Made by a program: the position numbers and the translations under genes. The notes beneath the pieces were generated by a model. The model worked only from the letters and a program-made list of their open reading frames with translations. It searched no databases and had not been told where the DNA came from. A stretch of DNA of 64,000 nucleotides from Selaginella moellendorffii (Eukaryota; Plantae; Lycopodiophyta): positions 216,005-280,004 of the forward strand of contig NW_003314398.1 of NCBI RefSeq assembly GCF_000143415.4, read 5' to 3'. This document shows, piece after piece, positions 10,852 through 48,110 of this stretch. Numbering within the stretch: position 1 is the stretch's first letter; every line of letters starts with the position of its first letter.

Positions 10852-11061
10852 TGTAGTGCACCTTATCTCTCTTCCCTTAAGCCAACTAAAAAAGGGGCAA
10901 AAAGAGCCCTTAATGACTATTTTATTTCCATTTATCCAAAATTCCCATTTATCCAAAATTCCAAGGATCCACGGGTAACAGTATATTCAAATTTCATCTC
11001 ATGATCATATATGCTACACTCAGAGAAAGACCCAAGATGTACAATTTTAAATTTTAGGGGT
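10852..11061 (-). mobile_element. 3' half of a TRIM (3' LTR plus part of internal region) split by transposon copy 1
   Basis: Reverse complement matches the TRIM LTR at 55887-56048 and its internal region at ~56139-56160. Flanked by CTTAT (10847-10851), the rc of the ATAAG TSD at 32791-32795. Confidence 0.85.
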
Positions 11062-11085
11062 AAGCTCTATTTCGTTAAAGTGGGA
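11062..11085 (+). repeat. Terminal inverted repeat, copy 1 left
   Basis: AAGCTCTATTTCGTTAAAGTGGGA; exact rc at 23551-23574. Confidence 0.95.
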
Positions 11086-11492
11086 ATTGTCATTATCCCA
11101 CTTGTAAAATAAGGTTTCCAAACCTTTATATAGTATATAAATATAACAAAATTCAACTGCATTGAGGCACATGCCATTTTATTTTAAACAAGGAAATGTC
11201 TACTCAATCACTTCTCACTGCTTCACCTCTCTCTTCTCCTTGTCATCGTCGTCCAATTTCTTTCCATCCTTTTAATATTGGCTCAGTTGCTCCGAGTCTA
11301 GGTGGAGCCCAAGTCCCCATTCAATCTTTACTTTCCCCTTATTAATAAAACAACTTCGTAAACTTCCAATAACATGCTGTAACACTTCTAGTATAATGCA
11401 AATCCTCTCAAAGAATTGTCTTTTAATATTAATACAATGGCATGGAACCCCATGCCATAATAAGTTACATTTTTAAATAAATACATGCCATC

Positions 11493-14400
11493 TCAGACTG
11501 TTATTTTTTGCCTCCAACGCCTATACAATAATCTTGGAATTTCATCACTCTCCACACTATCAGGATTTAAACCCAATAGTAATGCCATCTCTTCTCTAAT
11601 ACGTCCACGCTCATGTTCAGTGGTCGAAGAACCCATCCGGTTGAGCAGATTATGGAGATGCGGATAGTGCTTGGCTAGACAATATACATGCCATAAATGA
11701 TGACTGGTGTCTGTCCGATCAAATGGCTTCTGATATACCGTTCCATCTGCCATTTGGTTGATTTCTGCAGCCACCTCCTGGACTAGCCGGTTCTCTATCA
11801 CCATCGCTTCAAGCCGTTTTGCAAGGTCCCCCAGAACATACGGTTTCTTCTCCCTAGTTTCCATACTGCAAGAGATGGGGTGCACTGCATATGTGTGCGT
11901 GTTCGCTGCAGTTTTAATCGGCGAGTCATCGATGATGAGGATTTCACTTGACCTAGCAGTCCGGTTCATCACTACAGCCTCTGCCTTGACGAAGATGGGC
12001 TTGCTACCCCTCACATGGACCATAGTCAAGCAATCCTCCTGCGTTAGGAGAAAGTCAAATGGTAATATTACTCGCGTTTGATCGTGCATCATCTGTAGCA
12101 ACGTTAATGCATTGTGGCGCATCATGGATGTCCAAACTCCCAATTGCAAATTGAACCCGGCCCTCTGTTTTAAGTGTCGCATGGTCATTATTAGATCCCG
12201 CAGTTTCTCCCGTGTGATTAATGTGAATCTGTCTCTTTTGACCAACTTGCGACCGCAGGCTTTGGAGGGTGCAGTGACATTCGAGGACGAGCCACGCTCA
12301 TGGGAGAAAAGGACACCGTTCAGATCAAAAACGATACAGTACTTTCGCCGTGACTCTGAAATGAAATGCGTTAGCATAAAAAATGGTATAAGTCAATTTT
12401 ACCATCTACAATATTAGCGAATGGTGCTCCCGATGGTCGTTCAGAGGGTTTTGGTCGAGGAAACGTGAAGGGCGGAAATACTCTCCTCTGCAATGTGGGG
12501 TCAATCGCATCCGATGGCGTGTGGGCACATGCCATTTCAGCTGTAGACTCTGGTACAACTGGCTCAACAGTGGCATGGGGTGGTTCCGATGGCGTGTGAT
12601 CACACGCCATTTCAGCTGGTGCCTCCGTTGGCAAAGTGGACATGACCGAACAGGCAGCAGGGGCGGTGTAGGGAGGTTCCAACGGCGCGTAGTCAGACGA
12701 TTGGGCACACGTTGGAAATGAGGATACGACCGGCTCGGCGGCTGGGGCGGCCTCATGCGGGTCCAATGGCGCCTGGTCACCGTCAGTTGGATACGTGGAC
12801 AAGATTGACTCAGTGGTATGGGCAGCATCAAGTGGAGCGTGGTCAGCTTGCTTGGCGTTGATATGGATAGTAGCCTCCACCAGCTCTGATGACTCTTGCA
12901 GGCAAGTAGAGTCCACTGGCGGATCCATATGCATGTCCAAATATCTCCCTTTGATTGAGATGGTATCCTCCCTACTGGCTACTAAAAACAAACTCATTAG
13001 CACATTGAATCGACTATACTGTATTTACCATCAACTACTATTGAGGAACTAGGACCGATATCACTTGGGCGCACTGCTGATTCTGAAGGATTGGACATAC
13101 GTTTCGACCCTTGCTTGGCACTATCCTTCCTCGACACTAAAGGCTAGAGTTTGTATCTTAATTCAACTGAATAATCTCTACTTACCATTTCTTCTGCGAC
13201 CTACATGGACAATGTTAGAAATGGTAAAAGGTTAGGAATGGATGTACTATTATTTACCTGATGGTTTGTCTTGTATGACCTTCCTCCGCTGCTCTTTGGC
13301 CACCTCAGGCTGGCCATCATCGTCATCATTGTCATCGTCGTTATTGTGATCGTCACCATTGTGAGGACCATCCAAGTCCTCTTCGTCCTCCTCTTCTTCG
13401 TCCTCCTCTTCTTTGTCCTCCTCTTCGTCCTTCTGCTCTTCCTGCTCATTATCTTTCTCTGGCTCCTCATCCCCCTCTTGCATTTCTTCCATAGGCTGCT
13501 CAGGCTGGATGGCTTGTTCTTCCAGGACCATCTTGGGAAAATCATCTGGCCGAGTCTCCATCTCAAAATACAAGACATCCATAGCCTGTTTTAGTGCGTG
13601 ACCTAGGACCGTATCCTCACCCGACTGTCTTAACATGGTTTCTGCACGTTCTTGCACCCTTCGAAGACGACGAGATGAGAAAAACGTGGCCCTTACTTGA
13701 AAAGCATCCCTCATCCATTGTACCTCTCCATTGAGATTGGGGAAGGGGAGTCCGCCATAGGAATCTGAGTCAGGAGGTGGTGACTGGCTACTTTCACTCA
13801 GCCCTTGATCTGCAATGAATGGCATGAGCACACACGCCATAACCGCGAGGCATTACCTATCATCTTTTCGTTGCCCTTCTTCCTTTTCGAATCAAACGCC
13901 TCTGATCCCGACAACTGTCCAACGTGCTTTCGCTTTTTATGACCACTGTCAGTTTGAGCTTGGCTGGTGCTTGCCTGTTTTGCCTTTGAAGAAGTGTCTC
14001 CTGCAAGGAATGGCATGAGACCACACGCCATTGCAAATATAATTTGTACCTCCTTTTTTCCTATTGCTTGTCTGTTTGTCCTTCTTCGACGCACCACCAG
14101 TGCGCTTTTCAGTCCTCGTGTCTGAATATTCACAACGATCTATAATCAAAATGGCGTGAGGCCTCACGTGACCTTACCTTGTGCAGGTTGTGACCTCGGC
14201 CTAACATCAGTAGCTGTTAACGCCGTTTCAGCATCTGGGGGTGGCCACGCTCCTGCATACAGAGCTTGTGAGATAACATTTAAACTTAAAGTGCGTACTC
14301 ACCAGGTTCGTAGAGAAGATACTGTTTTTCTTTGGCAACTGTAATTATATGCTCCATTGAAGTCACCTCTTCAATGGAGTTTGTCACCGCAACACACGGG

Positions 14401-16864
14401 ACACCCTTGAGTAGTGCGGCTCGAAAGAATAGTCCGCCGCAGTTGTACTCGACAACGCATTTGCCCTTGGAGTCACCCGCTATTGCGTTGAAGACCCAGC
14501 TGAGCATTTCCCATGCTGCACCTGGAGCTTTCTTTGGATTCGAAAGCTCCATAGCCGTCTTCAGTTCCTCAGGCACGGGTAAATTGACCTCCCTCAGATC
14601 AATTCGATCGGCTTTGTTGAACGAAGCTGGGAAGTCACTCCAGTCCCACTCTGCTGCAGGACCAATAACAAGGGCGACTGTGAAGATGCGGACATTCGTC
14701 GGTATCTTCTTCTTAGCCATTATCCCATGGATCTCCCGCATCTCCTTGCCTTTCAACCGAGCCTTCACCTCGTTCAAGGCCTTCCAGAACTTGTGATAGG
14801 ATTCGGAGTCGTAGATCATATAGTGGACTGAAAATTCCACCTCCGCAAGTCCCACCATTAAGTCAATGATGGAGCTGACTTCGTCTGCATGAGTGATCTC
14901 CTCGTTTGTGAAGTCCATCACACAAAAGATGTTCTTGACCTGCTCATCTCCGCGGGAAACGATGCTCCTCCACCTTTGATCCTCATCCGAATTCACGTAT
15001 ACCCGGTAAGGTTCTCGATAGGCCTCTGCTGCGGGGTCGAGCTGTTTCTGAAGCCGGCGGTCGACATCCCTCTTAATGAAATTTGGATACTGATCCAACT
15101 TCTCAGCTTTACTTTTCGTGGCATCCTGCAGCAGATCGATGAACTTGGGGGCCCCCTTCACGTACTCGTCGATGTCTTCATTTGACAAGTCCAGCTCTTC
15201 CATCATCTCTTGCGTGGTGTCGATGCTCACCCTCGCCACGGCCACTTGCTCGAAGATCCAATCCTTCAATAGCGCACGAGCTCTCAGAGTCGTGCACAAG
15301 TCCTCGTATGTCACAATATGGCCGGGAGTCATTTTGGTCTTGTTGAAGACTACCTCACCAAGTAGAAGAGCATTAGCCACTGTTAGAAGGTCGTCGTCGT
15401 CTAGAGACCGCGAGAAACGCAAGGCGTTGAGCTTCAAATCATTGGGCTTCCGGCCGTCCTCCACACCCATTGAGTTTAGCAACTCCCCGTCATGGTACCT
15501 CCTTAGCACATCTACCCATTTGTCAAAAACAACTTTTGTCGCGAGTAGAATGTTATGGATGCTGAGTGTGTCATTGACCCCCAGTGTTTTCGAGAGAAGA
15601 CTCGAGAATTCCTGCAATGGAAATGGCGTGAGGCCACATGCTATGCCACATGCAACGAGGCTTACCTGCCAGGCACTAGTTGCTAGTGCACGTCCTTGTC
15701 CTGGTTTTTGTGGCTTCTTCAGTTGAACCCAGAGCTTCCGTGTTCGTGCCAATGTCTCGTGCAGACCCGATTTGTAGCACGTTTCTTGCTTGACATTCTG
15801 CGCGTGGGAGATGTATATGATAGATCGGAGGGGCGAGTTGCCTTTTATCAGGCGGACAACTCTTGTCTTGAAGACTTTCTTCACCTCCTTGCCCACCATA
15901 ATATCCACAACTATCTGTTGCATCGCCAAGCTAGAATGCTGCTCGGAGACGGCATAGAACCGGATGTTCTGATCGTCCAACACCTTCCTATTGATCAAGT
16001 CTGGAAACCTCGTCTCGCCCTTCATTGTTCGGTAGTAGGGGATCATGTCTGCGATGTCGGGTGTTACTGGACTTGCCAGCATCTTCTGCTTCAGTTTCTC
16101 CACCCACTCATCAGATACTAGCCTGTGGTTGTATTTGCTTTGGATGTCGATACGGCTCATGTCGATTGTATATACTTTGTTGGAATAGTAACAAGTACTA
16201 TTATCTGTGACGATTTTTGCTGCCTCTTCTTGCTCTTTCTGCTCTTTGCGGCTCTTCTTTTTGGTGGGTGTAGTGTTCGAACCCGAGGCAATGGCATCAC
16301 CGAGTAGCTTCTTTTTTGGAGCAGCAGAGTCGGACGTCGGCTTGAGCTTGACCACCCTTTTCTGCTTCGGGGTAGTTTCCAGATCGACCCCCTTCCCCTT
16401 CGCTTCGTGAACTGGAGGCACTCTCAACAGCTCAATGTTGGAATATAGTTTTTGAACATCGCCGTAGGTGAGGTCCGTGGATTCCATGTGATCTTCATAG
16501 ACCCGCACGTCTTTGAAATTGTGGGCCTCCTGGACAACCTCTCCCTAGCTCCCTCTAGGAATTCCTCATAGCCGCTGCCCCCCTCCGGGAAGCCGCTAGG
16601 ATGTGCAAGGTGGATCTTAAAGGCGGATGCTGTCTCTACCACAAGTGCCAGTCCATATTCTTGCATGGAACTGCATGGATCGTCTGTCACTTGGATGAGG
16701 ATCCCCATGCATTCTTTTCTCCCACCATCTGTGTTGTACAGCATCAGATCCTCGCCTTCCATCCCGAAAGTCCAACTGGTGAGCTCCTCCCCCTTCTCTG
16801 CATCCACATTGACAGTGGCTGGAAGAAGAACGCAATTCCTTGCCTGTTCAAAAATGCACAACAA
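11493..16864 (-). CDS. Transposon cargo gene, copy 1: spliced multidomain protein (ParB/Srx-like, MTase-like, acidic and Pro-rich linker, FCP1-like HAD phosphatase); 1-nt frameshift near 16508; true start uncertain
   Basis: Exons ~16843-15666, 15611-14303, 14252-14178, 14121-14050, 14000-13857, 13809-13258, 13200-13186, 13136-13029, 12981-12403 and 12355-11493 join in frame via GT-AG introns of 47-57 nt. The last exon has FCP1/NIF-type motifs IVFDLNGVL, GVWTS, KPIFVK and IIDDSPIK. Confidence 0.8.
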
Positions 16865-18309
16865 TTAGAGCTGACAGATGAAAAGCTAGCAGCTGGAAAT
16901 AACGTGAGGCCACACGCCATTCACCACTGCATCAGATGTCTTGAGGCTGCATCCTAAGATGGCATGAGGCTACACGCCATCTGTAACCGGACTGCACTCG
17001 AGAGCCCAATCGGTGCATGCCAATGTTGCTACTGAATGGCATGTGGCCTCATGCCATTTTCTACTTGGCCTAAAAGACTTACCATTTAAAGCCGAATGGA
17101 GGCGTGATAATCGAGGCCAGACTTGCTGGCGAATGTGCACTATGTGTGCAGCGGATCGTAGCAGCAAGGCTACTCTGCCACTTACAGTTGGAGAGTGGCG
17201 CTGAAATCTCCCGGGATGCCAAGTGGGCTGCGTGTGGGTGGCAGAGTGGGCGGCGGAGTTGGCGGCGAAGTTAGAAACTGGGTGTGTCTTGAAGTGGACG
17301 CCGATGCACACGAGCGCGATGCGAGCGCGAGTGTGATGCAAGCGCGAGTGGACGCCGATGCACACGAGAAACCTGTAGAGAAGGTAGATGAGCGCGAATG
17401 TGAGCGTGATCGTGAGTGGGAGCGCGATGCGAGCGCGAGTACGAAGCAAAATGCAAAACCTAACCTCACACGCGCGAAATGTCACGACGGTTGGTAATCC
17501 CGCCATGTCATCATTCCTCGGACTTGGGCGCCACCATTAATTTCTGGATCGTCGCGCGCATGCATGCACGTGAAATCCAAAAGAAATCCACAACGTCATC
17601 ATTCCTCAGATTGCATGCACGTGAAATCCAAAAGAAAGATCATGATTGGGATATCATTTAATACCCTTGCTATATTTATACCATGCATGATTGGATATTC
17701 CAAAGCATCTTGTATTTCCAAAAATGCCAGATGTTCAGCTAAATAAAGAATGGTATACAAAAAATCCCAAAAAATGCACCAAAAAATGCTCGGTGCCATC
17801 TGGCGTTATCTCTTGAATGGCGTGGGGCCGCATGCCATTTTCAGGGGCACATAGGAGTATATTCCTAGAATATTCTGACGCGCGAGATTTTTTTGAGTTT
17901 TTTGGAGATCCAACCGTTAGATCGCAACTAGATTTTACAGAATGGTATAGAATGTCTTTCTTGATGACCCTGCAAAGAAGCATCTCGATCGGACACCACA
18001 TGAGACCACACAAGCCTTACAATGTTTCAGGGCCATTTGCTATAGATCCGACCGTTATTTTGCTCCAAGATTTTACAGTTTGGTGTGCATTGACCTTTCC
18101 ATCGACACTGCAAAGGGACATCACAATCAGATGTTTGATCACAAGAAACTAACTTCACTAACTCTAGTTTCACCAAGATCTACGTAAGGAGTTATGAAAT
18201 GAAAGGACCCTCTCTATTGAAATGTGTTTATGGTCCTAGGGGCATTGTGACATATCAAAGGATTTTGCATCAAGTTCTGTATTTGCATGTTTATCAAGCT
18301 ACTGAATTG

Positions 18310-18336
18310 CTAAACCCTAAACCCTAAACCCTAAAC
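18310..18336 (+). repeat. Short interstitial plant telomere repeat (CCCTAAA)n / telo-box array
   Basis: CTAAACCCTAAACCCTAAACCCTAAAC; one unit longer in copy 2 at 38746-38779. Confidence 0.85.
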
Positions 18337-19311
18337 ATGTGGCAAATGCTGCATGAAGAAAGATGCCCTTTCTGGGCAAATGCTGTAAGAGGCAGATGCC
18401 GAGCAGATGTATCTCAGGCTAGCGAAGGGGACAAACGAAAGCTAGCTATAAACATGATGGGATGCAAATAGATTACTAGGCTAGTCCTGCAAAAATCAAA
18501 AACCATAATTGAAAACATTGAAAATGCAAAAAGAAAGGTTTATAATATTTTTGAATTTTAAGCAACCAAAGGAATGTTAGGGCATGTGTTTGTAAGTTTA
18601 AAAATGCCTCAACCACTTAAATTCCCAAGTAAATAAAGCTGTTTCTATTTTTGGTACAGGTAAACTTTATAGCGTGTGGGCTCATGCAATTTTGAACCCA
18701 AAAATGCACCTAAAAATGCTCGAGTAGCATTATTCTTTGAATGGCGTGTGGCCTTATATTGCCATAAATGGACGTACACACACAGCATAATTATTCCTTT
18801 ACACGGCGAATAATCTTGGCGTGGATCGCTGATATGGCATGGCAAAGTTCGAATCACTGACATGGCACAACTGGATCAAGGCAAGGACATGATGTGACAT
18901 GGTGTTGCGAGCGGCGCTACGAGTAGTTGCGGTGTTGCGAGCGGCACTGTCTTTGGTGTGGCTACCGCTTCCTCTTGATATTCGGCACTTGTGCTTCCTG
19001 GTATGTTCACCATGGAATGGCTTAGGACCACATTTAGAAATGGCATGAGGCCACATGCCATCTTGGGCCCTTGCAATTTCATGGCTAGCGTATTGTCATG
19101 TATGTTTTTACTTGCCTACAGCTGTGTGTATATCAAGATGGCATGAGGCCTCATGCCAATTTTGTGAATGCGAAATTTCACGTGGGTGTCAATAGCATGT
19201 TTGAATAATGGCATGTGGCCTCATGCTATTGAGGTTGTTTGGTATGTTATGATTTAGGCCATTCTCCAATCATTTTTTGTATGGTCTTAACTTCTTTTTT
19301 GCACTTTCAGA

Positions 19312-22300
19312 ATGGCCTTCACGGTTGGGGAAAAGGTTTACATTTTGAATGGTGGGAAAAGAGTTGCAAAAGGGACCCTTGTGTCTATGGATCGGAACTT
19401 TGTTATACACTGTCAAAGGCTTGGGGAAGGCAATGCTGCTGTATCAATAGAGACTGTCTTCGATGGGAATGTGGTTGCTATTGAACGAGGAGAGATGGTC
19501 GTCGGGGTAAATGTTGTTGTTGCCTTGAAAAATCTTCAGAAGAAAGCAGATGTTGGGGACAGCGCAAGTGCGACGCATGTTCCCTCCGTGGATCTTAAGA
19601 ACCGTGCTACATGGATTCAGGCAAAAGTGTTTCTAAACAACCCCGAGGGGGAGGTGGTAGCTGAGGGCTTAGCCACAGTTGTCGATCCAAGAGATGCGGT
19701 TGCTAATCAAGAATTGGGCTGGGATGATATTGGAGTTGCGATTTTAGAGGTTGTTGACACAGAAGAAAACAGTCTGACTATTGGAAGCATTGTGCGGTGG
19801 AAATTGAGGCACTTAGTGTTTGAGAATGTGAAGGATTCACAATCAAACACCACTACAACTGATGACAGAACATCTCTTCATGGGAAAAGAAAGTACACCT
19901 TCCTAAAGCGCAGCCAAAGGGATCTGAGCAACGAACCGAAAAGGCAGAAAATGGCGATGGAGGTTCAAATGGTCTCGACAGTTGCTTGTTGCAAGAGGAG
20001 GTGCTGTCAACATGCTGATTGGGATGCTATTGAAGAGGAGAAAGCAAGATACAAGACATTGTCCTGGAAGGCAGCTCGCAATTTTGTGTATGAGGCATTA
20101 CGGTCATCTGTTGATGCTTCAGAACATCAGGTGGGGGGCATGGTCTTCCAGAGGGGTTTGGTCTGCAAGAAGGCATGGAGAATCATTTATGGAGTCCCTC
20201 GAACCACATTCTACACAATCAAAACTGAGTTCGAGGAACAAAGGGTTCAACAGGCAGTCCATGGGAACGACGGTACGCACAAAACCAGGGGTCATGTTGT
20301 ATATGGAGAGGCAATCTTCAAGAGGTTTGTCGAGACATGTAGCGAGCAGCAACCACATAAAACCCGCCTCTTGGAAGATGGAACACGAGACACCCAACGA
20401 GTTCTCCCTTCCATGTATACCAAGGGGGCCATATTGGAAGATGTGAATCGGGAACTCCAGAGTAATGGCTACAGGAAGCTGAGCCAATCTAGATTTAGTA
20501 GATTGTGGAGCAACAGGTTCAAGGATGTGAGTATAGGAAAGTACTCCAGCTTTTCAAAGTGTGACGAGTGCACTGCTATCAAAATGGCTTTGTCGAAGAA
20601 TTCTTGCAGCGCTCAAGAGCGAGAGACGTTGGTTAGAAGGCGGCTCGACCACAACATCGAGCAGAGAAGCTGCAGGACTGCATATTATCATAACAGGATT
20701 CTCTCCATGGAGAGACCTGACTCTTACCTCTGCATCATCCACGACAAAATGGACCAGAAAAAGACGTGCTTACCTCGACTCAATCCTGCCCCCAAGGCAA
20801 TCTCTTCATCCATGCAGCTGCCTGTGTCTCTGTTTGGCATAATCGCTCATGGGCATGGTGCCCAGAACTATGGGAACTTCTTTGTACCTCTATGTGCAAA
20901 CATGATGATTGCGTCCCTAGCAAAACACTTAAGGTCTCTGCAAAGTGCGCAGACTGAGCTGAACGGCCAACCCTTGCATAAGGCCCTTGTCAATCGAACC
21001 CCATACAGGGTTCAGCTGGAGGAGGAGCAAAGGCTTGCAGTATCGCGTGGGGCCCCATGCCATCCCAGTGAATATGTTGGCCGTCAGATTGTAGGGTTAT
21101 CACGTGAGGCCTCATGCCATTCCGACGAGGCTGGTCGCCCGGTGAATGCACAGCCTCATCCAAACGAAGCAGAATCTCAAGGAAGTTCTTGCGGCCGATG
21201 TGGCCTTCCACCCCATCTTCTGCTCCAAACAGACAATGCTGGCAGTGAGAACAAAAACATGTACGTCTTCGCGTACTTGGCGATGCTTGTTGCCAAAGGC
21301 ATATTTGAAACGGTTACACTTGGCTTTCTCATGGTTGGGCACACTCATGAAGACGTCGATGCCATGTTCAGTCACCTGGCAGAGTCCCTCCGGCGATCCA
21401 ATGTCCTCACCCTCCCACAACTCTACGATGAATTCCAAAATTGCATCAAAGGCACTGTTGAAGCTGCACTTCTGACAGAGGTTCCAGACTTTAAGGGGTT
21501 TGTAAGAGGCTACATCAGGGATGGATCCGAAACGCTGATTGGCCACTCCAAGCCTCTTCAGTTTCATTTCAGCATGCGTGACAGTGCTCCAATGATGAGG
21601 TACAAGATGAGAGAATGGGACACAGTGTGGCTGCCAGTGGACGGCATTGAACTCTTCAAGAGAGATCCCATAACTGGGGAACCTATGATTCCTCAGGGTT
21701 CCCCACGGCCGATGCACCCGGATGGACTCAAAGACCAGGAAAGTATAGTGGCCGGGATTAGACAGCATATTGCCTTCTGGAAGAGGGGGTTGGTGTTTGG
21801 TGGAGAATCCTATTTTCAGAGGTGCAAGCCTTTGCTCGAATACTGGGAGAAGATTATATCTGCTATCCAAAATGGGCCGGTTGTATATGAAGAATTGGAA
21901 GAGTCCTTTTGGCCAGAACCCAGAGCACCAGATAGTAGCGGAACAATGTCCTCTGGAAATGCAGTGACAGATAACGATGTTGAGGATCACTATTGTGGGC
22001 CGAGGAACAAGAAGCCGGATTCAGCATTCAATCCAGTACAGGTCTGCAAAGGAATGGTCGTGCTTGTCAGACCCAGTAATAAAAAACAAATGATATGGGT
22101 GGGGCGCTGCATCACTGATGCAGAGGAGGACGCGGAAACTAACTCCTTCAATGTAACTGTGGAGTGGTTCAAGCCAAGTTCCGGATATACGAAGGATTGC
22201 CTAGAAAAGAGATAGGTGCTGAATCCAAGGGATCCCAGCATGAGCATATCGGTGGATAATGTTGTGCATGGTTGGATGCGGAAGCAGAGTGCCACCATCA

Positions 22301-22441
22301 CCTTGCCAGACCATGCAAGAGATGCAGCAAGAGCATTCATAACTCGGGTTCAAGGTGAGATTCATTAATATTCCTTTACAAAGTTTCTAATGTATTTTAT
22401 TTCAAGGTGAACAATCCGAATCTGAATCAGAGGAGGCTTGA
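19312..22441 (+). CDS. Sola-like DDD transposase, copy 1 (967-aa ORF to TAG at 22213-22215; frame continues to 22354, intron 22355-22406, stop at 22441)
   Basis: CDEC..H zinc motif and the triad motifs IIHDKMDQKKT.LP (20734+), LQTDNAGSENKN (D at 21232) and FLMVGHTHEDVD (21337-21360), resembling Sola-type DN..NKN / GH....D cores. Located inside TIRs. Confidence 0.85.
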
Positions 22442-22656
22442 TATAGTGTGTGAGGTAAAACAAAGATGATGTGACATATGCATTTACCAATCACACGTGC
22501 ATAAATCTAATAATATGGCGTGTGGCCCATATTAATGGCACATAAACCCATATTGTGGGCTTACGTGCTTTATGTACCATCATTCCCTTGCAGCGTGTGT
22601 GTTGGTTTCCTTTTATAACACAACGAACTCCATATTTTAGGGTGAAGAGCGTTCTC

Positions 22657-23550: not shown

Positions 23551-23574
23551 TCCCACTTTAACGAAATAGAGCTT
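23551..23574 (-). repeat. Terminal inverted repeat, copy 1 right
   Basis: TCCCACTTTAACGAAATAGAGCTT. Confidence 0.95.
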
Positions 23575-31173: not shown

Positions 31174-31179
31174 GTATAT

Positions 31180-32720: not shown

Positions 32721-32795
32721 CAAGAATGGCTTGCACTCTTTGTGATGAAATGGTGAATAGTTGATAAATCTTATTTTGGCTCATTCATATATAAG

Positions 32796-37100: not shown

Positions 37101-37323
37101 GAAGATTTTTCAAGGCAACAACAACATTTACCCCAACGACCATCTCTCGTTCAATAGCAACCACATTCCCATCGAAGACAGTCTCTACTGATACAGCAGC
37201 ATTGCCTTCCCCAAGCCTTTCACAGTGTATAACAAAGTTCCGATCCATAGACACAAGGGTCCCTTTTGCAACTCTCTTCCCACCATTCAAAATGTAAACC
37301 TTTTCCCCAACCCTGAAGGCCAT
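34185..37323 (-). CDS. Sola-like DDD transposase, copy 2 (970-aa ORF 37323-34411, partly in N gap)
   Basis: Same motifs as copy 1; retains VPLWGGGGANM where copy 1 has a 12-nt deletion; same TAG at 34411-34413. Confidence 0.85.
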
Positions 37324-38745
37324 TCTGAAAGTGCAGAAAAGAAGTTAAGACCATACAAAAAATGATTGGAGAATGGCCTAAATCATAACATACCAAACAA
37401 CCTCAATAGCATGAGGCCACATGCCATTATTCAAACATGCTATTGACACCCACGTGAAATTTCGCATTCACAAAATTGGCATGAGGCCTCATGCCATCTT
37501 GATATACACACAGCTGCAGGCAAGTAAAAACATACATGACAATACGCTAGCCATGAAATTGCAAGGGCCCAAGATGGCATGTGGCCTCATGCCATTTCTA
37601 AATGTGGTCCTAAGCCATTCCATGGTGAACATACCAGGAAGCACAAGTGCCGAATATCAAGAGGAAGCGGTAGCCACACCAAAGACAGTGCCGCTCGCAA
37701 CACCGCAACTACTCGTAGCGCCGCTCGCAACACCGCAACTGCTCGTAGCGCCGCTCGCACAAACTGCCACTCGCATAAACTGCCGCTCGCAATGGCGCTC
37801 GCAATGCCGCAACCGCTCGTAGACGCATAAACCACAGCCCACAACGCCGCTTACACAAGCAGCGCTCACTGCGCTCAGCGGAACCAAGAACACGGCGCAC
37901 AAAAATGATAGACCTAGGAATGAGTTCGAGAATTCAAAAATAACACACGCTTGAACGTCACATCAAATCCTCTGACAAACCAGATCTTATGATTCCTCTG
38001 ACAAATTTCAAACTGAGTAGCTTCTAGACTTTGCTGTCGGAGGTTGAACTTTGTCACATCATGTCCTTGCCTCGATCCAGCTGTGCCATGTCAGTGATTC
38101 GAACTTTGCCATGCCATGTCAGCGATCCGCGCCAAGATTATTCGCCGTGTAAAGGAATAATTACGCTGTGTGTGTACGTCCATTTATGGCAATATAAGGC
38201 CACACGCCATTCAAAGAATAATGCTCGACATAAGGCCACACGCCATTCAAAGAATAATGCTAGTCGAGCATTTTTTGGTGCATTTTTGGGTTCAAAATGC
38301 ATTGAGNNNNNNNNNNNNNNNNNNNNNNNNNNNNNNNNNNNNNNNNNNNNNNNNNNNNNNNNNNNNNNNNNNNNNNNNNNNNNNNNNNNNNNNNNNNNNN
38401 NNNNNNCTATAAAGTTTACCTGTACCAAAAATAGAAACAACTTTATTTACTTGGGAATTTAAGTGGTTGAGGCATTTTTAAACTTACAAACACATGCCCT
38501 ACTTACATTCCTTTGGTTGCCTAAAATTCAAAAATACTATAAACCTTTCTTTTTGCATTTTCAATGTTTTCAATTATGGTTTTTGATTTTCGTAGGACCA
38601 GCCTAGTAATCTATTTGCATCCCGTCATGTTTATAGCTAGCTTTCGTTTGTCCCCTTCGCTAGCTTGAGATACATCTGCTCGGCATCTGCCTCTTACAGC
38701 ATTTGCCCAGAAAGGGCATCTTTCTTCACGCAGCATTTGCCACAT

Positions 38746-38779
38746 GTTTAGGGTTTAGGGTTTAGGGTTTAGGGTTTAG
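38746..38779 (-). repeat. (TTTAGGG)n interstitial telomere-like repeat
   Basis: GTTTAGGGTTTAGGGTTTAGGGTTTAGGGTTTAG. Confidence 0.85.
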
Positions 38780-40574
38780 CAATTCAGTAGCTTGATAAAC
38801 ATGCAAATACAGAACTTGATGCAAAATCCTTTGATATGTCACAATGCCCCTAGGACCATAAACACATTTCAATAGAGAGGGTCTTTTCATTTCATAACTC
38901 CTTACGTAGATCTTGGTGAAACCAGAGTTAGTGAAGTTAGTTTCTTGTGATCCCGCATCTGATTGTGATGTCCCTTTGCAGTTTCGATGGAAAGGTCAAT
39001 GCACACCAAACTGTAAAATCTTGGAGCAAAATAACGGTCGGATCTATGGCAAATGCCCCTGAAACATTGTAAGGCTCGTGTGGTCTCATGTGGTGTCCGA
39101 TCGAGATGCTTCTTTGCAGGGTCATCAAGAAAGACATTGTATACCATTCTGTAAAATCTAGTTGCGATCTAACGGTTGGATCTCCAGAAAACTCAAAAAA
39201 ATCTCGCGCGTGTCAGAATATCCTAGGAATATACTCCTATGTGCCCCTGAAAATGGCATGCGGCCCCACACCATTCAAGAGATAATGCCAGATGACGCCG
39301 AGAATTTTTTGGTGCATTTTTTGGGTTCAAAATTGCATGAGCCCACACGCTATAAAGTTTATCTTTGCCAAATAGAGAAAAGTTTATCTGTGTCATGTGA
39401 GGTAGTTACAGTCCTTTGTGCTCGGCATCTGCCTCTTGCAGCATTTGCACTGAAAGGGAATTTTTCTCCATTCAGCATTTGGCCCTGAAAATGGCATGCG
39501 CCCACACGCCATTCAAGGAATAACGCCACAGGACGCCTGGATTTTTGGGTTTAAAATGTTTAGGGTTTTTTGGGTTTTTTCAAAATATTTTGGGTCCAAC
39601 GTTTTTTGGGTTTCTTTGGTTCAAAATTGCATGAGCCCACACGCTATAATATTGATTTAAGAGAAAAATAGAAACAGATAGAATTTCTTTATTTAGCTGA
39701 ACATCTGCCATTTTTGGAAATACAAGATGCTTTGGAATATCCAATCATGCATGGTATAAATATAGCGAGGGTATTAAATGATATCCCAATCATGATCTTT
39801 CTTTTGGATTTCGCGTGCATGCAGTCCGAGGAATGATGACGTTGCGGATTTCTTTTGGATTTTGCGTGCTTGCATGCGCGCGGCAATCCAGAAATTAATG
39901 GTGGCGCCCAAGTCCGAGGAATGATGACGTGGCGGGATTACCAACCGTTGTGACATTTCGCGCGTGTGAGGTTAGGTTTTGCATTTTGCTTTGTACTCGC
40001 GCTCGCACACTCGCGCTCCCGCTCGCATCGCGCTCCCACTCGCGATCACGCTCACTTCTCTACAGGTTTCTCGTGTGCATCGGCGTCCACTCGCGCTTGC
40101 ATCACACTCGCGCTCGCATCGCGCTCGTGTGCATCGGCATCCACTTCAAGACACACCCAGTTTGTAACTTCGCCGCCAACTCCGCCGCCCACTCCACCAC
40201 CCACACGCAGCCCACTTGGCATCCCGGGAGATTTCAGCACCACTCTCCAACTGTAAGTGGCAGAGTAGCCTTGCTGCTACGATCCGCTGCACACACAGTG
40301 CACATTCGCCAGCGAGTCCGGCCTCGATTGTCACGGCCTCCATTCGGCTTCAAATGGTAAGTCTTTTAGACGAAGTAGAAAATGGCATGAGGCCACATGC
40401 CATTCAGTAGCAACATTGGCATGCACCGATTGGGCTCTCGAGTGCAGTCCGGTTACAGATGGCGTGTAGCCTCACGCCATCTTAGGATGCAGCCTCAAGA
40501 CATCTGATGCAGTGGTGAATGGCGTGTGGCCTCACGTTATTTCCAGCTGCTAGCTTTTCATCTGTCAGCTCTAA

Positions 40575-43500
40575 TTGTTGTGCATTTTTGAACAGGCGAG
40601 GAATTGCGTTCTTCTTCCAGCCACTGTCAATGTGGATGCAGAGAAGGGGGAGGAGCTCACCAGTTGGACTTTCGGGATGGAAGGCGAGGATCTGATGCTG
40701 TACAACACAGATGGTGGGAGAAAAGAATGCATGGGGATCCTCATCCAAGTGACAGACACTCCATGCAGTTCCATGCAAGAATATGGACTGGCACTTGTGG
40801 TAGAGACAGCGTCCGCCTTCAAGATCCACCTTGCACATCCTAGCGGCTTCCCGGAGGGGGGCAGCGGCTATGAGGAATTCCTAGAGGGAGCTAGGGAGAG
40901 GTTGTCCAGGAGGCCCACAATTTCAAAGACGCTGCGGGTCTATGAAGATCACATGGAATCCACGGACCTCACCTACGGCGATGTTCAAAAACTATATTCC
41001 AACATTGAGCCGTTGAGAGTGCCTCCAGTTTGCGAAGCGAAGGGGAAGGGGGTCGATCTGGAAACTACCCCGAAGCAGAAAAGGGTGGTCAAGCTCAAGC
41101 CGACGTCCGACTCTGCTGCTCCAAAAAAGAAGCTACTCGGTGATGCCATTGCCTCGGGTTCGAACACTACACCCACCAAAAAGAAGAGCCGCAAAGAGCA
41201 GAAAGAGCAAGAAGAGGCAGCAAAAATCGTCGCAGATAATAGTACTTGTTACTATTCCAACAAAGTATATACAATCGACGTGAGCCGTATCGAGATCCAA
41301 AGCAAATACAACCACAGGCTAGTATCTGATGAGTGGGTGGAGAAACTGAAGCAGAAGATGCTGGCAAGTCCAGTAACACCCGACATCGCAGACGTGATCC
41401 CCTACTACCGAACAATGAAGGGCGAGATGAGGTTTCCAGACTTGATCAATAGGAAGGTGTTGGACGATCAGAACATCCGGTTCTATGCCGTCTCCGGGCA
41501 GCATTCTAGCTTGGTGATGCAACAGATAGTTGTGGATATTATGGTGGGCGAGGAGGTGAAGAAAGTCTTCAAGACAAGAGTTGTCCGCCTGATAAAAGGC
41601 AACTCGCCCCTCCGATCTATCATATACATCTCCCACGCGCAGAATGTCAAGCAAGAAACGTGCTACAAATCGGGTCTGCACGAGACATTGGCACGAACAC
41701 GGAAGCTCTGGGTTCAACTGAAGAAGCCACAAAAACCAGGACAAGGACGTGCACTAGCAACTAGCGCCTGGCAGGTAAGCCTCGTTGCATGTGGCATAGC
41801 ATGTGGCCTCACGCCATTTCCATTGCAGGAATTCTCGAGTCTTCTCTCGAAAACACTGGGGGTCAATGACACACTCAGCATCCATAACATTCTACTCGCG
41901 ACAAAAGTTGTTTTTGACAAATGGGTAGATGTGCTAAGGAGGTACCATGACGGGGAGTTGCTAAACTCAATGGGTGTGGAGGACGGCCGGAAGCCCAATG
42001 ATTTGAAGCTCAACGCCTTGCGTTTCTCGCGGTCTCTAGACGACGACGACCTTCTGACAGTGGCTAATGCTCTTCTACTTGGTGAGGTAGTCTTCAACAA
42101 GACCAAAATGACTCCCGGCCATATTGTGACATACGAGGACTTGTGCACGACTCTGAGAGCTCGTGCGCTATTGAAGGATTGGATCTTCGAGCAAGTGGCC
42201 GTGGCGAGGGTGAGCATCGACACCACGCAAGAGATGATGGAAGAGCTGGACTTGTCAAATGAAGACATCGACGAGTACGTGAAGGGGGCCCCCAAGTTCA
42301 TCGATCTGCTGCAGGATGCCACGAAAAGTAAAGCTGAGAAGTTGGATCAGTATCCAAATTTCATTAAGAGGGATGTCGACCGCCGGCTTCAGAAACAGCT
42401 CGACCCCGCAGCAGAGGCCTATCGAGAACCTTACCGGGTATACGTGAATTCGGATGAGGATCAAAGGTGGAGGAGCATCGTTTCCCGCGGAGATGAGCAG
42501 GTCAAGAACATCTTTTGTGTGATGGACTTCACAAACGAGGAGATCACTCATGCAGACGAAGTCAGCTCCATCATTGACTTAATGGTGGGACTTGCGGAGG
42601 TGGAATTTTCAGTCCACTATATGATCTACGACTCCGAATCCTATCACAAGTTCTGGAAGGCCTTGAACGAGGTGAAGGCTCGGTTGAAAGGCAAGGAGAT
42701 GCGGGAGATCCATGGGATAATGGCTAAGAAGAAGATACCGACGAATGTCCGCATCTTCACAGTCGCCCTTGTTATTGGTCCTGCAGCAGAGTGGGACTGG
42801 AGTGACTTCCCAGCTTCGTTCAACAAAGCCGATCGAATGATCTGAGGGAGGTCAATTTACCCGTGCCTGAGGAACGAAGACNNNNNNNNNNNNNNNNNNN
42901 NNNNNNNNNNNNNNNNNNNNNNNNNNNNNNNNNNNNNNNNNNNNNNNNNNNNNNNNNNNNNNNNNNNNNNNNNNNNNNNNNNNNNNNNNNNNNNNNNNNN
43001 NNNNNNNNNNNNNNNNNNNNNNNNNNNNNNNNNNNNNNNNNNNNNNNNNNNNNNNNNNNNNNNNNNNNNNNNNNNNNNNNNNNNNNNNNNNNNNNNNNNN
43101 NNNNNNNNNNNNNNNNNNNNNNNNNNNNNNNNNNNNNNNNNNNNNNNNNNNNNNNNNNNNNNNNNNNNNNNNNNNNNNNNNNNNNNNNNNNNNNNNNNNN
43201 NNNNNNNNNNNNNNNNNNNNNNNNNNNNNNNNNNNNNNNNNNNNNNNNNNNNNNNNNNNNNNNNNNNNNNNNNNNNNNNNNNNNNNNNNNNNNNNNNNNN
43301 NNNNNNNNNNNNNNNNNNNNNNNNNNNNNNNNNNNNNNNNGTGGCGCTTCGAAGAAGGACAAACAGACAAGCAATAGGAAAAAAGGAGGTACAAATGATA
43401 TTGGCAATGGCGTGTGGTCTCAGCGCATTCCTGGCAGGAGACACTTCTTCAAAGGCAATACAGGCAAGCACCAGCCAAGCTCAAACTGACAGTGGTCATA

Positions 43501-45927
43501 AAAAGCGAAAGCACGTTGGACAGTCGTCGGGATCAGAGGCGTTTGATTCGAAAAGGAAGAAGGGCAACGAAAAGATGATAGGTAATGCCTCGCGGTTATG
43601 GCGTGTGTGCTCATGCCATTCATTGCAGATCAAGGGCTGAGTGAAAGGAGCCAGTCACCACCTTCTGACTCAGATTCCTATGGCGGACTCCCCTTCCCCA
43701 ATCTCAATGGAGAGGTACAATGGATGAGGGATGCTTTTCAAGTCAGAGCCACGTTTTTCTCATCTCGTCGTCTTCGAAGGGTGCAAGAACGTGCAGAAAC
43801 CATGTTAAGACAGTCGGGTGAGGATACGGTCCTAGGTCACGCACTAAAACAGGCTATGGATGTCTTGTATTTTGAGATGGAGACTCGGCCAGATGATTTT
43901 TCCAAGATGGTCCTGGAAAAACAAGCAATCCAGCCTGAGCAGCCTATGGAAGAAATGCAAGAGGGGGATGAGGAGCCAGAGAAAGATAATGAGCAGGAAG
44001 AGCAGAAGGACGAAGAGGAGGATGAAGAAGAGGAGGACGAAGAGGACTTGGATGGTCCTCACAATGGTGACGATCACAATAACGACGATGACGATGATGA
44101 CGATGATGGCCAGCCTGAGGTGGCCAAAGAGCAGCGGAGGAAGGTCATACAAGACAAACCATCAGGTAAATAATAGTACATCCATTCCTAACCTTTTACC
44201 ATTTCTAACATTGTCCATGTAGGTCGCAGAAGAAATGGTAAGTAGAGATTATTCAGTTGAATTAAGATACAAACTCTAGCCTTTAGTGTCGAGGAAGGAT
44301 AGTGCCAAGCAAGGGTCGAAACGTATGTCCAATCCTTCAGAATCAGCAGTGCGCCCAAGTGATATCGGTCCTAGTTCCTCAATAGCAGTTGATGGTAAAT
44401 ACAGTATAGTCGATTCAATGTGCTAATGAGTTTGTTTTTAGTAGCACGGGAGGATACCATCTCAATCGAAGGGAGATATTTGGACATGCATATGGATCCG
44501 CCAGTGGACTCTACTTGCCTGCAAGAGTCATCAGAGCTGGTGGAGGCTACTATCCATATCAACGCCAAGCAAGCTGACCACGCTCCACTTGATGCTGCCC
44601 ATACCACTGAGTCAATCTTGTCCACGTATCCAACTGACGGTGACCAGGCGCCATTGGACCCGCATGAGGCCGCCCCAGCCGCCGAGCCGGTCGTATCCTC
44701 ATTTCCAACGTGTGCCCAATCGTCTGACTATGCGCCGTTGGAACCTCCCTACACCGCCCCTGCTGCCTGTTCGGTCATGTCCACTTTGCCAACGGAGGCA
44801 CCAGCTGAAATGGCGTGTGATCACACGCCATCGGAACCACCCCATGCCACTGTTGAGCCAGTTGTACCAGAGTCTACAGCTGAAATGGCATGTGCCCACA
44901 CGCCATCGGATGCGATTGACCCCACATTGCAGAGGAGAGTATTTCCGCCCTTCACGTTTCCTCGACCAAAACCCTCTGAACGACCATCGGGAGCACCATT
45001 CGCTAATATTGTAGATGGTAAAATTGACTTGTACCATTTTTTATGCTAACGCATTTCATTTCAGAGTCACGGCGAAAGTACTGTATCGTTTTTGATCTGA
45101 ACGGTGTCCTTTTCTCCCATGAGCGTGGCTCGTCCTCGAATGTCACTGCACCCTCCAAAGCCTGCGGTCGCAAGTTGGTCAAAAGAGACAGATTCACATT
45201 AATCACACGGGAGAAACTGCGGGATCTAATAATGACCATGCGACACTTAAAACAGAGGGCCGGGTTCAATTTGCAATTGGGAGTTTGGACATCCATGATG
45301 CGCCACAATGCATTAACGTTGCTACAGATGATGCACGATCAGACGCGAGTAATATTACCATTTGACTTTCTCCTAACGCAGGAGGATTGCTTGACTATGG
45401 TCCATGTGAGGGGTAGCAAGCCCATCTTCGTCAAGGCAGAGGCTGTAGTGATGAACCGGACTGCTAGGTCAAGTGAAATCCTCATCATCGATGACTCGCC
45501 GATTAAAACTGCAGCGAACACGCACACATATGCAGTGCACCCCATCTCTTGCAGTATGGAAACTAGGGAGAAGAAACCGTATGTTCTGGGGGACCTTGCA
45601 AAACGGCTTGAAGCGATGGTGATAGAGAACCGGCCAGTCCAGGAGGTGGCTGCAGAAATCAACCAAATGGCAGATGGAACGGTATATCAGAAGCCATTTG
45701 ATCGGACAGACACCAGTCATCATTTATGGCATGTATATTGTCTAGCCAAGCACTATCCGCATCTCCATAATCTGCTCAACCGGATGGGTTCTTCGACCAC
45801 TGAACATGAGCGTGGACGTATTAGAGAAGAGATGGCATTACTATTGGGTTTAAATCCTGATAGTGTGGAGAGTGATGAAATTCCAAGATTATTGTATAGG
45901 CGTTGGAGGCAAAAAATAACAGTCTGA
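40575..45927 (+). CDS. Transposon cargo gene, copy 2 (ParB-like / MTase-like / FCP1-like), partly hidden by gap 42882-43340
   Basis: 756-aa ORF lacks the copy-1 frameshift and keeps FYAVSGQHS (41481). Intron at 41775-41828. FCP1-like last exon 45065-45927. The 1-nt loss near 42838 lies at a contig edge and may be a sequencing error. Confidence 0.8.
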
Positions 45928-46358
45928 GATGGCATGTATTTATTTAAAAATGTAACTTATTATGGCATGGGGTTCCATGCCATTGTATTAATATTAAAAG
46001 ACGATTCTTTGAGAGGATTTGCATTATACTAGAAGTGTTACAGCATGTTATTGGAAGTCTACGAAGTTGTTTTATTAATAAGGGGAAAGTAAAGATTGAA
46101 TGGGGACTTGGGCTCCACCTAGACTCGGAGCAACTGAGCCAATATTAAAAGGATGGAAAGAAATTGGACGACGATGACAAGGAGAAGAGAGAGGTGAAGC
46201 AGTGAGAAGTGATTGAGTAGACATTTCCTTATTTAAAATAAAATGGCATGTGCCTCAATGCAGTTGAATTTTGTTATATTTATATACTATATAAAGGTTT
46301 GGAAACCTTATTTTACAAGTGGGATAATGACAATTCCCACTTTAACGAAATAGAGCTT

Positions 46359-48110
46359 AAGAATACAAACTTTCAAGACTTAGCCAACTTCTTTCTACTA
46401 ACAACTTCACATAGGTTCACCTCAACACAAATTCTCGAGACCCATAGCATGCTTAAGCATTGAACATCTTTTTGCCCATACTTCCGACATCCAACACCGA
46501 CATCCGCCAAAATACAAAGTGATCATCCAAAGCTTGATCACGGAGACCATATCTTCGGATATTCACATTGCACTAACACTCTTCTTCACCACCTTCAAGA
46601 TCCAATGTGAAGCCAAAACACTAACAAGAAAAATGACATGGAAAATCAAGCTCTAAGGAAAATTCCTCATCACTCGAAATAATAATGCCACTTCCACTAA
46701 CACAAGTGTTAGTGATGTCAATGCCTCAACTACACACCTTCTCCATCCAATAATCTACTTTAAGTGCTAACGGATCAATCGATGAGCTATAGCAAATGAA
46801 TGCTACAACGCTTTTCAACACCTCAATGGGTAAACCCTCAAAGAACAAGGAACCAACTTAAGCTTAGCATAATGAATCACTATTGAGAATCTAGTCGAAG
46901 CTACTACATGCTACTACGTGCAAGTAGACTAGCGTCACCATCAACCACTTTGGGGTTGATCATCGTTTAACCAAGCAACTTCGTAAACACATTGTTCATT
47001 ATCACATGGATATGATACAACATCACAATGACTTGATCATCAATTAAGCAACACTATGAGCAATGCCCATGTCATTACGTCAAAGGTTTATGTGAATATC
47101 AAGTGCCAACTCAATTTGACAAAATGTAACATAAATGCCACACTCCACCGATAAAGACTTACAACACCCAACACCACTAACTTTTGTTCACAACACGGAC
47201 AAGCTCATGCCACTCTTTTTCCGATCAAACTCAAAACTAGTCTAACACCAAGCTATTCAAAGAACAATAGCAAAGTTCCCTGGAAAAGCATTGAGCATTG
47301 TAACCTCAGTCTTCCATAGCAAGCCTAGATAAAATGGTATAACGTTTCACCGCTATCCATCCCATGACTCACCACATGTAAAACGATCATTTCCAACATG
47401 CATCAAGGTAGGGACTCTTGATTGCATAATGTGAACATGAGCAATGAATTAACACCTCATTGCAAATCATCTCCCCAAGAGAAAATGATTACGTGTTGNN
47501 NNNNNNNNNNNNNNNNNNNNNNNNNNNNNNNNNNNNNNNNNNNNNNNNNNNNNNNNNNNNNNNNNNNNNNNNNNNNNNNNNNNNNNNNNNNNNNNNNNCA
47601 CGAAGCGGACCTGAACCTCTTTGTGCCATGTGACAGATGCCACGTGTCTATGCCACGTGTCCATAGGAACCCGAGGTTTAAGGCCTTGGGCCACTGAACG
47701 AAGAAACGGTGCCAAACTCCCAAGCATGAAGCCAAAGAGTGGTGGAACCAAACTATGGAGCAACTCCTGAGCATAAAGCCTAAAGAGCGAAGGGATAGGA
47801 ATCCGGAGCGACTTGGAACAGTCCTAGAGTAACTAGTATCCCAATGCTAGGACCAGCATGCAAAACAGAGCCAAACGAAGTCTAGCGCTATTTCGGCATA
47901 CCGGTGGCCTAATGCGAGGACATGGGTACTCCACCAGCTAGCATGGAATGGAACTTGGGCTTAGACCCAAGCTAGATGCAAAACAAGGACAGGCACGCAA
48001 GCGGGAGCTAGACTATGCCTCAGGTTGGTTGGCCATGCCCAACCTACCCACTATCCCTACATCCCTACTATACATTTGGAACCCCCCATAGCCCCCCCCC
48101 CCCCCCCTAC
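46359..48110 (-). mobile_element. 5' part of the LARD split by transposon copy 2 (5' LTR fragment ~48110-47600, internal region to 46359)
   Basis: rc of 47600-48110 is nearly identical to the LTR at ~26995-27500; rc of 47140-47420 matches 52190-52480. Confidence 0.85.

What the first reader, a model, noticed from the sequence alone, without database searches (positions are those of the whole stretch)
11058..46362. Reciprocally swapped TSDs reveal inversion of the 9.5 kb between the two transposon copies
Copy 1 is flanked by GGGT (11058-11061) and TCTT (23575-23578); copy 2 by ACCC (33048-33051) and AAGA (46359-46362). Neither has its own TSD, but flipping 23575-33051 gives GGGT..GGGT and AAGA..AAGA. 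Independent support: (1) a TRIM is split between 32796-33051 and 10852-11061 in opposite orientations yet shares TSD ATAAG; (2) the LARD LTR pair 26437-27558 and ~47600-48110 is inverted instead of direct; (3) the LARD at 52190-54260 joins rc(47420..) to 24620.. as predicted. The present copies are therefore chimeras, produced by ectopic recombination or by mis-assembly across near-identical repeats.
Basis: seen in the sequence. Interest (0 to 1): 0.7.

Follow-up and report, generated by a model that had tools for sequence, protein, structure and literature searches.

The report
Transposon-bounded 9.5-kb inversion in a spikemoss
Two nearly identical 12.5-kb jumping genes face each other in spikemoss (Selaginella-like) DNA with their insertion footprints swapped, so the 9.5 kb of repeat DNA between them is flipped in this sequence, likely by recombination between the copies (a well-known process), although a one-step transposition accident or an assembly error would look the same.

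Summary
Observation confirmed. Two inverted copies (11062-23574, 33052-46358; 24-bp TIRs, 1.3% apart) of a DDE transposon carry exchanged 4-bp TSDs (chance about 2e-5). Flipping 23575-33051 rebuilds a TRIM with its own TSD, and that TRIM reads through the junction like an intact paralogue. The segment is therefore inverted relative to its ancestral state. The host is Selaginella (a neighbouring P450 is 80-94% identical to an S. moellendorffii protein); the element is Sola1-like.

A one-step hybrid-element (sister-chromatid) insertion gives the same TSD pattern with non-chimeric copies. The copies share rare alleles and differ near-neutrally in coding regions, except for a 3.4%-divergent central block, so they look like sisters.

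My odds: ectopic recombination 0.5, mis-oriented assembly 0.27, one-step hybrid insertion 0.2, other 0.03. No spanning reads were available. Only transposon debris is flipped. The pattern is textbook (Galileo inversions; rice Ds pairs), and this scan has already reported the same class at least six times in other genomes. Low interest.

The parts
11058..11061 (+). TSD X (GGGT), outer copy
11062..23574 (+). Copy 1 of a Sola1-like DDE transposon, 12,513 bp, no N, 24-bp TIRs
11493..12392 (-). ORF with NIF (HAD-like phosphatase) domain, cargo of copy 1 (copy 2: 45028-45927 +)
   Evidence: Pfam PF03031 E 5e-6
14286..16544 (-). 752-aa ORF of unknown function (copy 2: 40575-42845 +)
   Evidence: no Pfam or NCBIfam hit; no homologue among 7998 candidates scored
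17000..19499 (.). Central non-coding block where the copies differ 3.4% (0.8% elsewhere) with large indels; copy 1 carries the rare alleles
19291..22215 (+). Transposase ORF of copy 1 (DUF7869; predicted DDE/RNase H core; 4-aa deletion relative to copy 2 and P0004)
23575..23578 (+). TCTT, reverse complement of TSD Y
23575..33051 (.). Inverted segment, 9,477 bp: LARD internal part and 3' LTR, two tandem-repeat-rich elements, 5' half of a TRIM; no host gene recognised
26437..27558 (+). LARD-type 3' LTR (TG..CA, purine tract upstream)
32796..33051 (+). TRIM 5' half (LTR, PBS-like site, start of internal part); TSD ATAAG at 32791-32795
10852..11061 (-). TRIM 3' half; TSD (CTTAT on + strand) at 10847-10851
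33048..33051 (+). ACCC, reverse complement of TSD X
33052..46358 (-). Copy 2, 13,307 bp including 750 N in three runs; inverted relative to copy 1
34411..37344 (-). Transposase ORF of copy 2
46359..46362 (+). TSD Y (AAGA), outer copy
46363..48107 (-). LARD 5' internal part and visible piece of its 5' LTR (47599-48107), inverted relative to the 3' LTR
55887..56586 (+). Paralogous TRIM used as the uninterrupted reference for junction X
52185..54315 (+). Internally deleted LARD paralogue; confirms block order and orientation, not the junction

Best explanation
The 9.5 kb between two inverted Sola1-like transposon copies is flipped relative to its ancestral orientation, likely because the two closely related copies inserted separately (one into a TRIM at GGGT, one into a LARD at AAGA) and then likely recombined with each other. 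SHOWN: inverted copies, exchanged TSDs, the ancestral read-through at site X, and the order of the LARD blocks at site Y. INFERRED: the copies are sisters (a local hop or the same recent master), the flip happened in the plant rather than in the assembler, and homologous recombination rather than the transposase did it. If the exchange happened while the copies were still nearly identical, or near an end, no mosaic signal would remain, which fits the failure to find one.
For: Exchanged TSDs with no deletion, duplication or footprint at the four junctions; TRIM read-through. 12.5 kb of about 99% identical inverted sequence 9.5 kb apart is a ready substrate. In rice, 11% of rearrangements from an inverted Ds pair were inversions by homologous recombination (PMC3239180, abstract passage). 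The copies are unequally decayed (copy 1 has A/T at 77 of 114 transitions, p=2e-4) and differ by a 3.4% central block (p=9e-20 against the rest); this is easier with two insertions of separate history than with one duplication. Identical tracts are not longer than chance (longest 782 bp, P=0.15; top three P=0.11), so there is no sign that an assembler collapsed the copies.
Against: The diagnostic feature, reciprocal chimerism, was not found. The best polarity switch gains only 1.55 lnL and switches between 15.9 and 18.9 kb lose 3-7 lnL (the test assumes uniform polarity, which one search shows is not true). Outside the central block the asymmetry is 33:21 (p=0.13) and coding differences are near neutral (10 synonymous, 26 non-synonymous, pN/pS 0.76), as expected for same-age twins from a one-step event. 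All three N runs of the element lie in copy 2, and two of them abut the two longest identical tracts. No read or contig spans either copy.
Confidence: 0.5

Rival explanations
1. Assembly artefact: the plant has two ordinary copies (GGGT..GGGT and AAGA..AAGA) and the assembler oriented the unique 9.5 kb wrongly between near-identical inverted repeats, possibly helped by haplotype mixing.
For: Gapped scaffold with N runs in copy 2. Clusters of A>C changes and 1-bp deletions at the edges of one N run look like low-quality read ends (inference). Identical tracts of 782, 565 and 538 bp; 3 of the 5 alleles shared by both copies lie in these three tracts. The family is laid very deeply in runs X1-X3, so it is probably highly repeated (the tool warns that this is no copy number). 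All four junctions exist in either orientation, so short reads cannot decide.
Against: Copy 1 plus the inverted segment lie in one gap-free stretch, 1490-34518. The copies differ at 158 of 11,831 columns, enough to phase most of their length. Tract lengths are within chance. The two sized N runs equal the homologous copy-1 length to the base (191 and 459), which suggests that they were bridged, not guessed. A switch at the two N-adjacent tracts is mildly disfavoured (lnL -1.4 to -3.2).
Confidence: 0.27
2. One-step hybrid element insertion (sister-chromatid transposition): after replication the transposase paired one end of the element on each sister chromatid and inserted this hybrid 9.5 kb away. 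That would duplicate the element in inverted orientation and invert the DNA between old and new site in a single reaction, so the copies would be twins, not chimeras.
For: It predicts exactly X-[copy]-rc(Y)...rc(X)-[inverted copy]-Y (my derivation; Delprat 2009 says that exchanged TSDs do not rule it out). One event explains proximity, opposite orientation and inversion. No crossover was found. At 5 of 28 testable sites where copy 1 departs from the family majority, copy 2 has the same rare allele (0.46 expected by recurrent CpG decay, P=1e-4). Coding divergence is near neutral.
Against: Twins should decay evenly. The central block (44:16, 3.4%, with indels of 289, 55 and 316 bp, where copy 2 follows the family) needs an extra conversion or template-switch event. 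Shared alleles are equally expected from a local hop, from gene conversion, from read collapse, or from sample S1 being a different lineage. The reaction is documented for P and Ac/Ds ends (PMC2775673, PMC3239180), not for Sola in the searches made.
Confidence: 0.2
3. Only the inner segment was flipped, by transposase cuts or break repair at the two inward-facing ends or by exchange inside the terminal identical stretch, leaving both bodies intact.
For: The best-fitting polarity switch is in the last 360 bp of the inward end (3 of the last 4 transitions favour copy 2 as derived); the last 139 bp are identical.
Against: The gain is not significant (1.55 lnL). The junctions are base-perfect, with no footprint. 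An exchange within the terminal homology is simply ectopic recombination near the end.
Confidence: 0.03

Closest known systems
Galileo-generated inversion 2z3 (and 2j, 2q7) of Drosophila buzzatii (Delprat 2009, PMC2775673; passages and section 10 part 1 read)
   Same: Two copies of one cut-and-paste transposon in opposite orientation at the breakpoints, exchanged TSDs, no deletion or duplication.
   Different: There, chimerism was proven with 53 diagnostic sites and non-inverted chromosomes were sequenced; here neither. This inversion is only 9.5 kb and holds transposon debris.
Inversions between inverted Ds elements at rice OsRLG5 (PMC3239180; abstract and passages read)
   Same: A plant; a closely linked inverted pair made by a local hop; inversion by homologous recombination and by alternative transposition both seen.
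   Different: An experimental hAT system with a 1.1-kb spacer in tissue culture; here a natural, decayed pair of another superfamily.
Hybrid element insertion / sister-chromatid transposition of P and Ac/Ds elements (as described in PMC2775673 and PMC3239180; primary papers not read)
   Same: Predicts the same TSD exchange from a single progenitor.
   Different: Predicts copies identical at birth; these differ 0.8% (3.4% centrally) and the age of the event is unknown.
Sola1 DNA transposons (Bao 2009 not held; features from PMC3845634, PMC9033089, PMC5751038 passages, and recall)
   Same: 4-bp TSD; RNase H-like DDE transposase; the TIR has AAAGTGG at positions 16-22, the same register as the insect Sola1 TIR printed in PMC3845634; Sola1 is listed for Physcomitrella.
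   Different: Targets GGGT and AAGA do not fit the AWWT preference called a Sola1 hallmark; 12.5-13.3 kb with two or more cargo ORFs against 1.5-2.8 kb for the insect elements; no reference Sola transposase was available for a direct comparison.

Membership tests
TE-mediated inversion by ectopic recombination (Delprat criteria) | Two homologous copies in opposite orientation at the breakpoints | tested here: met
TE-mediated inversion by ectopic recombination (Delprat criteria) | Exchanged TSDs, no deletion or duplication at the junctions | tested here: met
   single-copy target inferred at site X from the paralogous TRIM
TE-mediated inversion by ectopic recombination (Delprat criteria) | Both copies chimeric, with a reciprocal switch | tested here: inconclusive
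   no significant polarity switch; only copy 1 could be compared with family contigs
TE-mediated inversion by ectopic recombination (Delprat criteria) | Inverted arrangement exists in the organism (spanning molecules; non-inverted allele known) | not testable with these tools
   no genome held; only fragmented contigs of one sample, none spanning
Hybrid element insertion / sister-chromatid transposition | Same TSD geometry from one progenitor | tested here: met
   geometry matches
Hybrid element insertion / sister-chromatid transposition | Copies identical at origin, not chimeric | tested here: inconclusive
   5 of 28 rare alleles shared and near-neutral coding divergence, but an asymmetric 3.4% central block
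Sola (Sola1) superfamily | 4-bp TSD | tested here: met
   (after un-flipping); the fifth base does not match at either site
Sola (Sola1) superfamily | TIRs | tested here: met
   24 bp, identical at four ends; shares AAAGTGG in register with the insect Sola1 TIR printed in PMC3845634 (compared by eye)
Sola (Sola1) superfamily | RNase H-like DDD/E transposase | tested here: met
   predicted core aligns to Metnase Z 9.0 (rmsd 3.3, 169 aa), Mos1 Z 8.9 (3.1, 166) and integrases; D485 and D488 invariant in 17 homologues
Sola (Sola1) superfamily | Transposase groups with reference Sola1 proteins | not testable with these tools
   no named Sola sequence or profile available; only DUF7869 hits; the link of DUF7869 and its motifs to Sola1 is recalled
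Sola (Sola1) superfamily | AWWT target preference (Sola1) | tested here: not met
   0 of 2 targets fit (against PMC3845634); hence 'Sola1-like', not filed as Sola1

The most novel reading that the evidence does not exclude
A natural one-step hybrid-element (sister-chromatid) insertion by a large, cargo-carrying Sola-like transposon in a lycophyte: one reaction duplicated the 12.5-kb element and inverted 9.5 kb of its flank. It would extend alternative transposition from P and Ac/Ds to this superfamily and warn that 'swapped TSDs' are over-read as recombination.
Probability: 0.2. Interest if true: 0.5.

Novelty: new member of a known kind. Interest (0 to 1): 0.25.

Why it matters
As it stands it is a clean example of a known rearrangement that moves no recognised host gene. 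It matters a little in two ways. It is a test site for either assembly quality or structural polymorphism in Selaginella. And if family-wide data favoured the one-step model, it would show that a poorly studied plant transposon superfamily restructures its flanks directly. The element itself (12.5-13.3 kb, an orphan 752-aa ORF, a NIF-like phosphatase, Tudor-like domains on the transposase) may deserve more attention than the inversion.

Tried and rejected
Whole genome: none held, so no other full copies and no second haplotype.

Sequencing runs: 6 listed, 3 hold 29-34% of the words of the inverted segment (one sample, one study, contigs only). Laid on copy 1 they show family alleles but no locus-specific or spanning contig and no empty-site joint among the rows shown (40 of 281 difference rows, 15 of 453 joints). 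Absence there proves nothing. No equivalent comparison was obtained for copy 2, so copy-2-private alleles could not be polarised against the family.

Crossover mapping by C>T polarity: no significant switch. Collapse test by tract length: negative (central block and the stretch 13990-14601 at the N edge left out). The idea that the central divergence reflects relaxed selection between two active lineages was rejected because coding differences are near neutral. CpG density does not explain it either (43 per kb against 25-49 elsewhere). P0004 as outgroup: of the copy 1/copy 2 differences it covers, 5 substitutions and the 4-aa deletion are copy-1-specific and 3 are copy-2-specific, with no switch visible. 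A 5-bp TSD was rejected.

Foldseek on the whole transposase gave no hit at E<=0.001. The protein atlas was unavailable. No tRNA gene was found. A fern or conifer host was considered and dropped.

Literature: no Sola-mediated inversion by title or abstract among the 15 listed of 18 papers, none; the primary Sola, DDE-domain and S. moellendorffii genome papers are not held.
Full report
1. Observation. Self-BLAST shows 11061-23574 and 46359-33052 as one inverted repeat in collinear blocks of 96-99.5% identity. The element runs 11062-23574 (12,513 bp) and 33052-46358 (13,307 bp, 750 N), with a 24-bp TIR identical at all four ends. Neither copy has its own TSD, but the inner 4-mers are the reverse complements of the opposite outer ones; the chance of both is 1.5-1.8e-5.

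2. Independent evidence for the flip. Site X lies in a TRIM. Its halves (32796-33051 on +, 10852-11061 on -) are bounded by ATAAG on both outer sides. Rejoined in silico they match the paralogous TRIM at 55887 over 283 nt at 86%, running 27 columns (21 matches) past the junction. This fixes the ancestral adjacency. Site Y lies in a LARD-type element. The 3' LTR 26437-27558 and the inverted piece 47599-48107 are mutual best matches (25 mismatches in 500 sites), and a paralogue at 52185-54315 has the blocks in the predicted order and orientation.

3. Host and element. A five-exon P450 at 2904-4658 (-) is 80-94% identical per exon to S. moellendorffii SELMODRAFT_448822; for the exon searched, the next hits are at most 65%. 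The host is therefore a Selaginella, S. moellendorffii or near it. The S. moellendorffii reference was Sanger-sequenced (PMC5750206, passage) and holds both haplotypes (PMC3680112, passages); that the window comes from that assembly is not shown. The element encodes a 974/977-aa protein with DUF7869 and 16 homologues, 15 at 29-44% and one (P0004) at 95%. Its predicted core aligns with Metnase, Mos1 and retroviral integrases (Z 8-9), so it is a DDE transposase. A 4-bp TSD and a TIR motif in register with an insect Sola1 TIR (PMC3845634) make it Sola1-like. The AWWT target rule is not met and no reference protein could be compared, so I do not file it as Sola1. It also carries a NIF-domain ORF and an orphan 752-aa ORF. 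The ORFs of 90 aa or more listed in the inverted segment look like repeat-derived frames (judged by eye, one scanned against Pfam without a hit).

4. How related are the copies? They differ at 158 of 11,831 aligned columns. The divergence is uneven: 85 of 2,488 (3.4%) in 17.0-19.5 kb against 73 of 9,343 (0.8%) elsewhere. Copy 1 carries A/T at 77 of 114 transitions (p=2e-4), 44:16 in the central block and 33:21 (p=0.13) outside it. Coding changes are near neutral, 10 synonymous and 26 non-synonymous (pN/pS 0.76, p=0.43), which reads as decay after insertion. Contigs of three runs of one sample were laid on copy 1; 40 of 281 difference rows were shown, 29 of them inside the element. Copy 2 has the family allele at 23, copy 1's rare allele at 5, and N at 1. 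Five shared alleles exceed recurrent CpG decay (0.46 expected, P=1e-4). The copies are therefore probably sisters, unless the sharing comes from conversion, read collapse or a different lineage in that sample; three of the five lie in the three longest identical tracts.

5. Are they chimeras? Not shown. A single switch in polarity gains at best 1.55 lnL (between 23210 and 23284) and loses 3-7 lnL between 15.9 and 18.9 kb. The test is weak because the asymmetry is concentrated in one block. Exchanged TSDs alone do not imply chimerism. If the transposase pairs the left end on one sister chromatid with the right end on the other and inserts them 9.5 kb along the same chromatid, the product is X-[copy]-rc(Y)...rc(X)-[inverted copy]-Y, exactly this structure. 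Delprat 2009 makes the same point and needed 53 diagnostic sites to prefer recombination (PMC2775673, section 10 part 1).

6. Real or assembly? All four junctions exist in both arrangements, so only molecules spanning a copy decide, and none was available. For an artefact: N runs in copy 2, two of them next to the longest identical tracts, with error-like edges at one, and a deeply laid family. Against: 1490-34518 is gap-free, tract lengths are within chance (P=0.15 and 0.11), and the two sized N runs match copy 1 to the base.

7. Weighing. I give a real inversion about 0.73. Within that, a local insertion followed by ectopic recombination gets 0.5: it is observed for inverted Ds pairs in rice (11% of rearrangements; PMC3239180 abstract) and allows separate histories for the copies. 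One-step hybrid insertion gets 0.2 and an end-only flip 0.03. Mis-assembly gets 0.27. These odds rest partly on my recollection that local hops are commoner than single-element sister-chromatid events in plants.

8. Novelty. The class is textbook, and the scan's own index lists 6 earlier findings with all the search words in at least 4 other genomes (AI notes, not checked here); none matches this protein or this genome. I found no report of a Sola-bounded inversion in the listings, which is weak evidence because the primary papers are not held. Verdict: new member of a known kind, interest 0.25.

Papers seen: PMC2775673 (passages, section 10 part 1 of 2); PMC3239180, PMC3845634, PMC9033089, PMC5751038, PMC5750206, PMC3680112, PMC6890710 and bioRxiv 2021.09.26.461848 (passages only). 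No supplements were read; Figure S1 of PMC2775673, which draws the hybrid-insertion outcomes, was not seen.

Noticed in passing
window 19291-19840 (+), transposase residues about 5-182: The predicted N-terminus is a pair of SH3/Tudor-like barrels; the best Foldseek rows are Spt5 KOW domains and the H3K9me-binding Agenet domains of ADCP1 (E about 6e-3, below the usual cut-off). A possible chromatin-reading module on a transposase.
   Followed up: partly
window 14286-16544 (-) and 40575-42845 (+): 752-aa open frame kept in both copies, with no Pfam, NCBIfam or sequence homologue found. By eye it recalls a ParB-like start and a degenerate methyltransferase motif near the end (recall, untested).
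   Followed up: partly
window 11493-13852 (-): NIF/HAD-like phosphatase ORF plus two low-complexity acidic or proline-rich frames; cargo at the outward end of the element.
   Followed up: partly
window 17000-19499: Copy 1 has a block about 4.5 times more divergent than the rest and lacks three stretches (289, 55, 316 bp) present in copy 2; loose ends of family contigs match the starts of two of them. Possibly a converted or older-lineage segment; unexplained.
   Followed up: partly
window 2904-4658 (-): Five-exon cytochrome P450 of the CYP72 clan type with short introns, 80-94% to S. moellendorffii SELMODRAFT_448822; the only host gene recognised, about 6 kb from the left breakpoint.
   Followed up: partly
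window 27680-31930: Two related elements in tandem (27905-29752 and 29798-31764, 73-75% alike) that begin with degenerate short repeats; a third relative lies at about 51013-51963.
   Followed up: no
window 58282-60187: RT/RNase H frame on + and a gag frame on -, with a 157-bp inverted repeat (58808-58964 and 59264-59420): a second, smaller rearrangement in a decayed LTR retrotransposon.
   Followed up: no
window 54315-57009 and 60485-64000: Nested and tandem LARD LTR pieces (54736-55208 and 55208-55685) and a TRIM at 55887-56586 with no clear TSD.
   Followed up: no
N runs within copy 2: The two sized N runs (191 and 459) equal the homologous copy-1 length exactly, unusual for gaps estimated from mate pairs.
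   Followed up: partly
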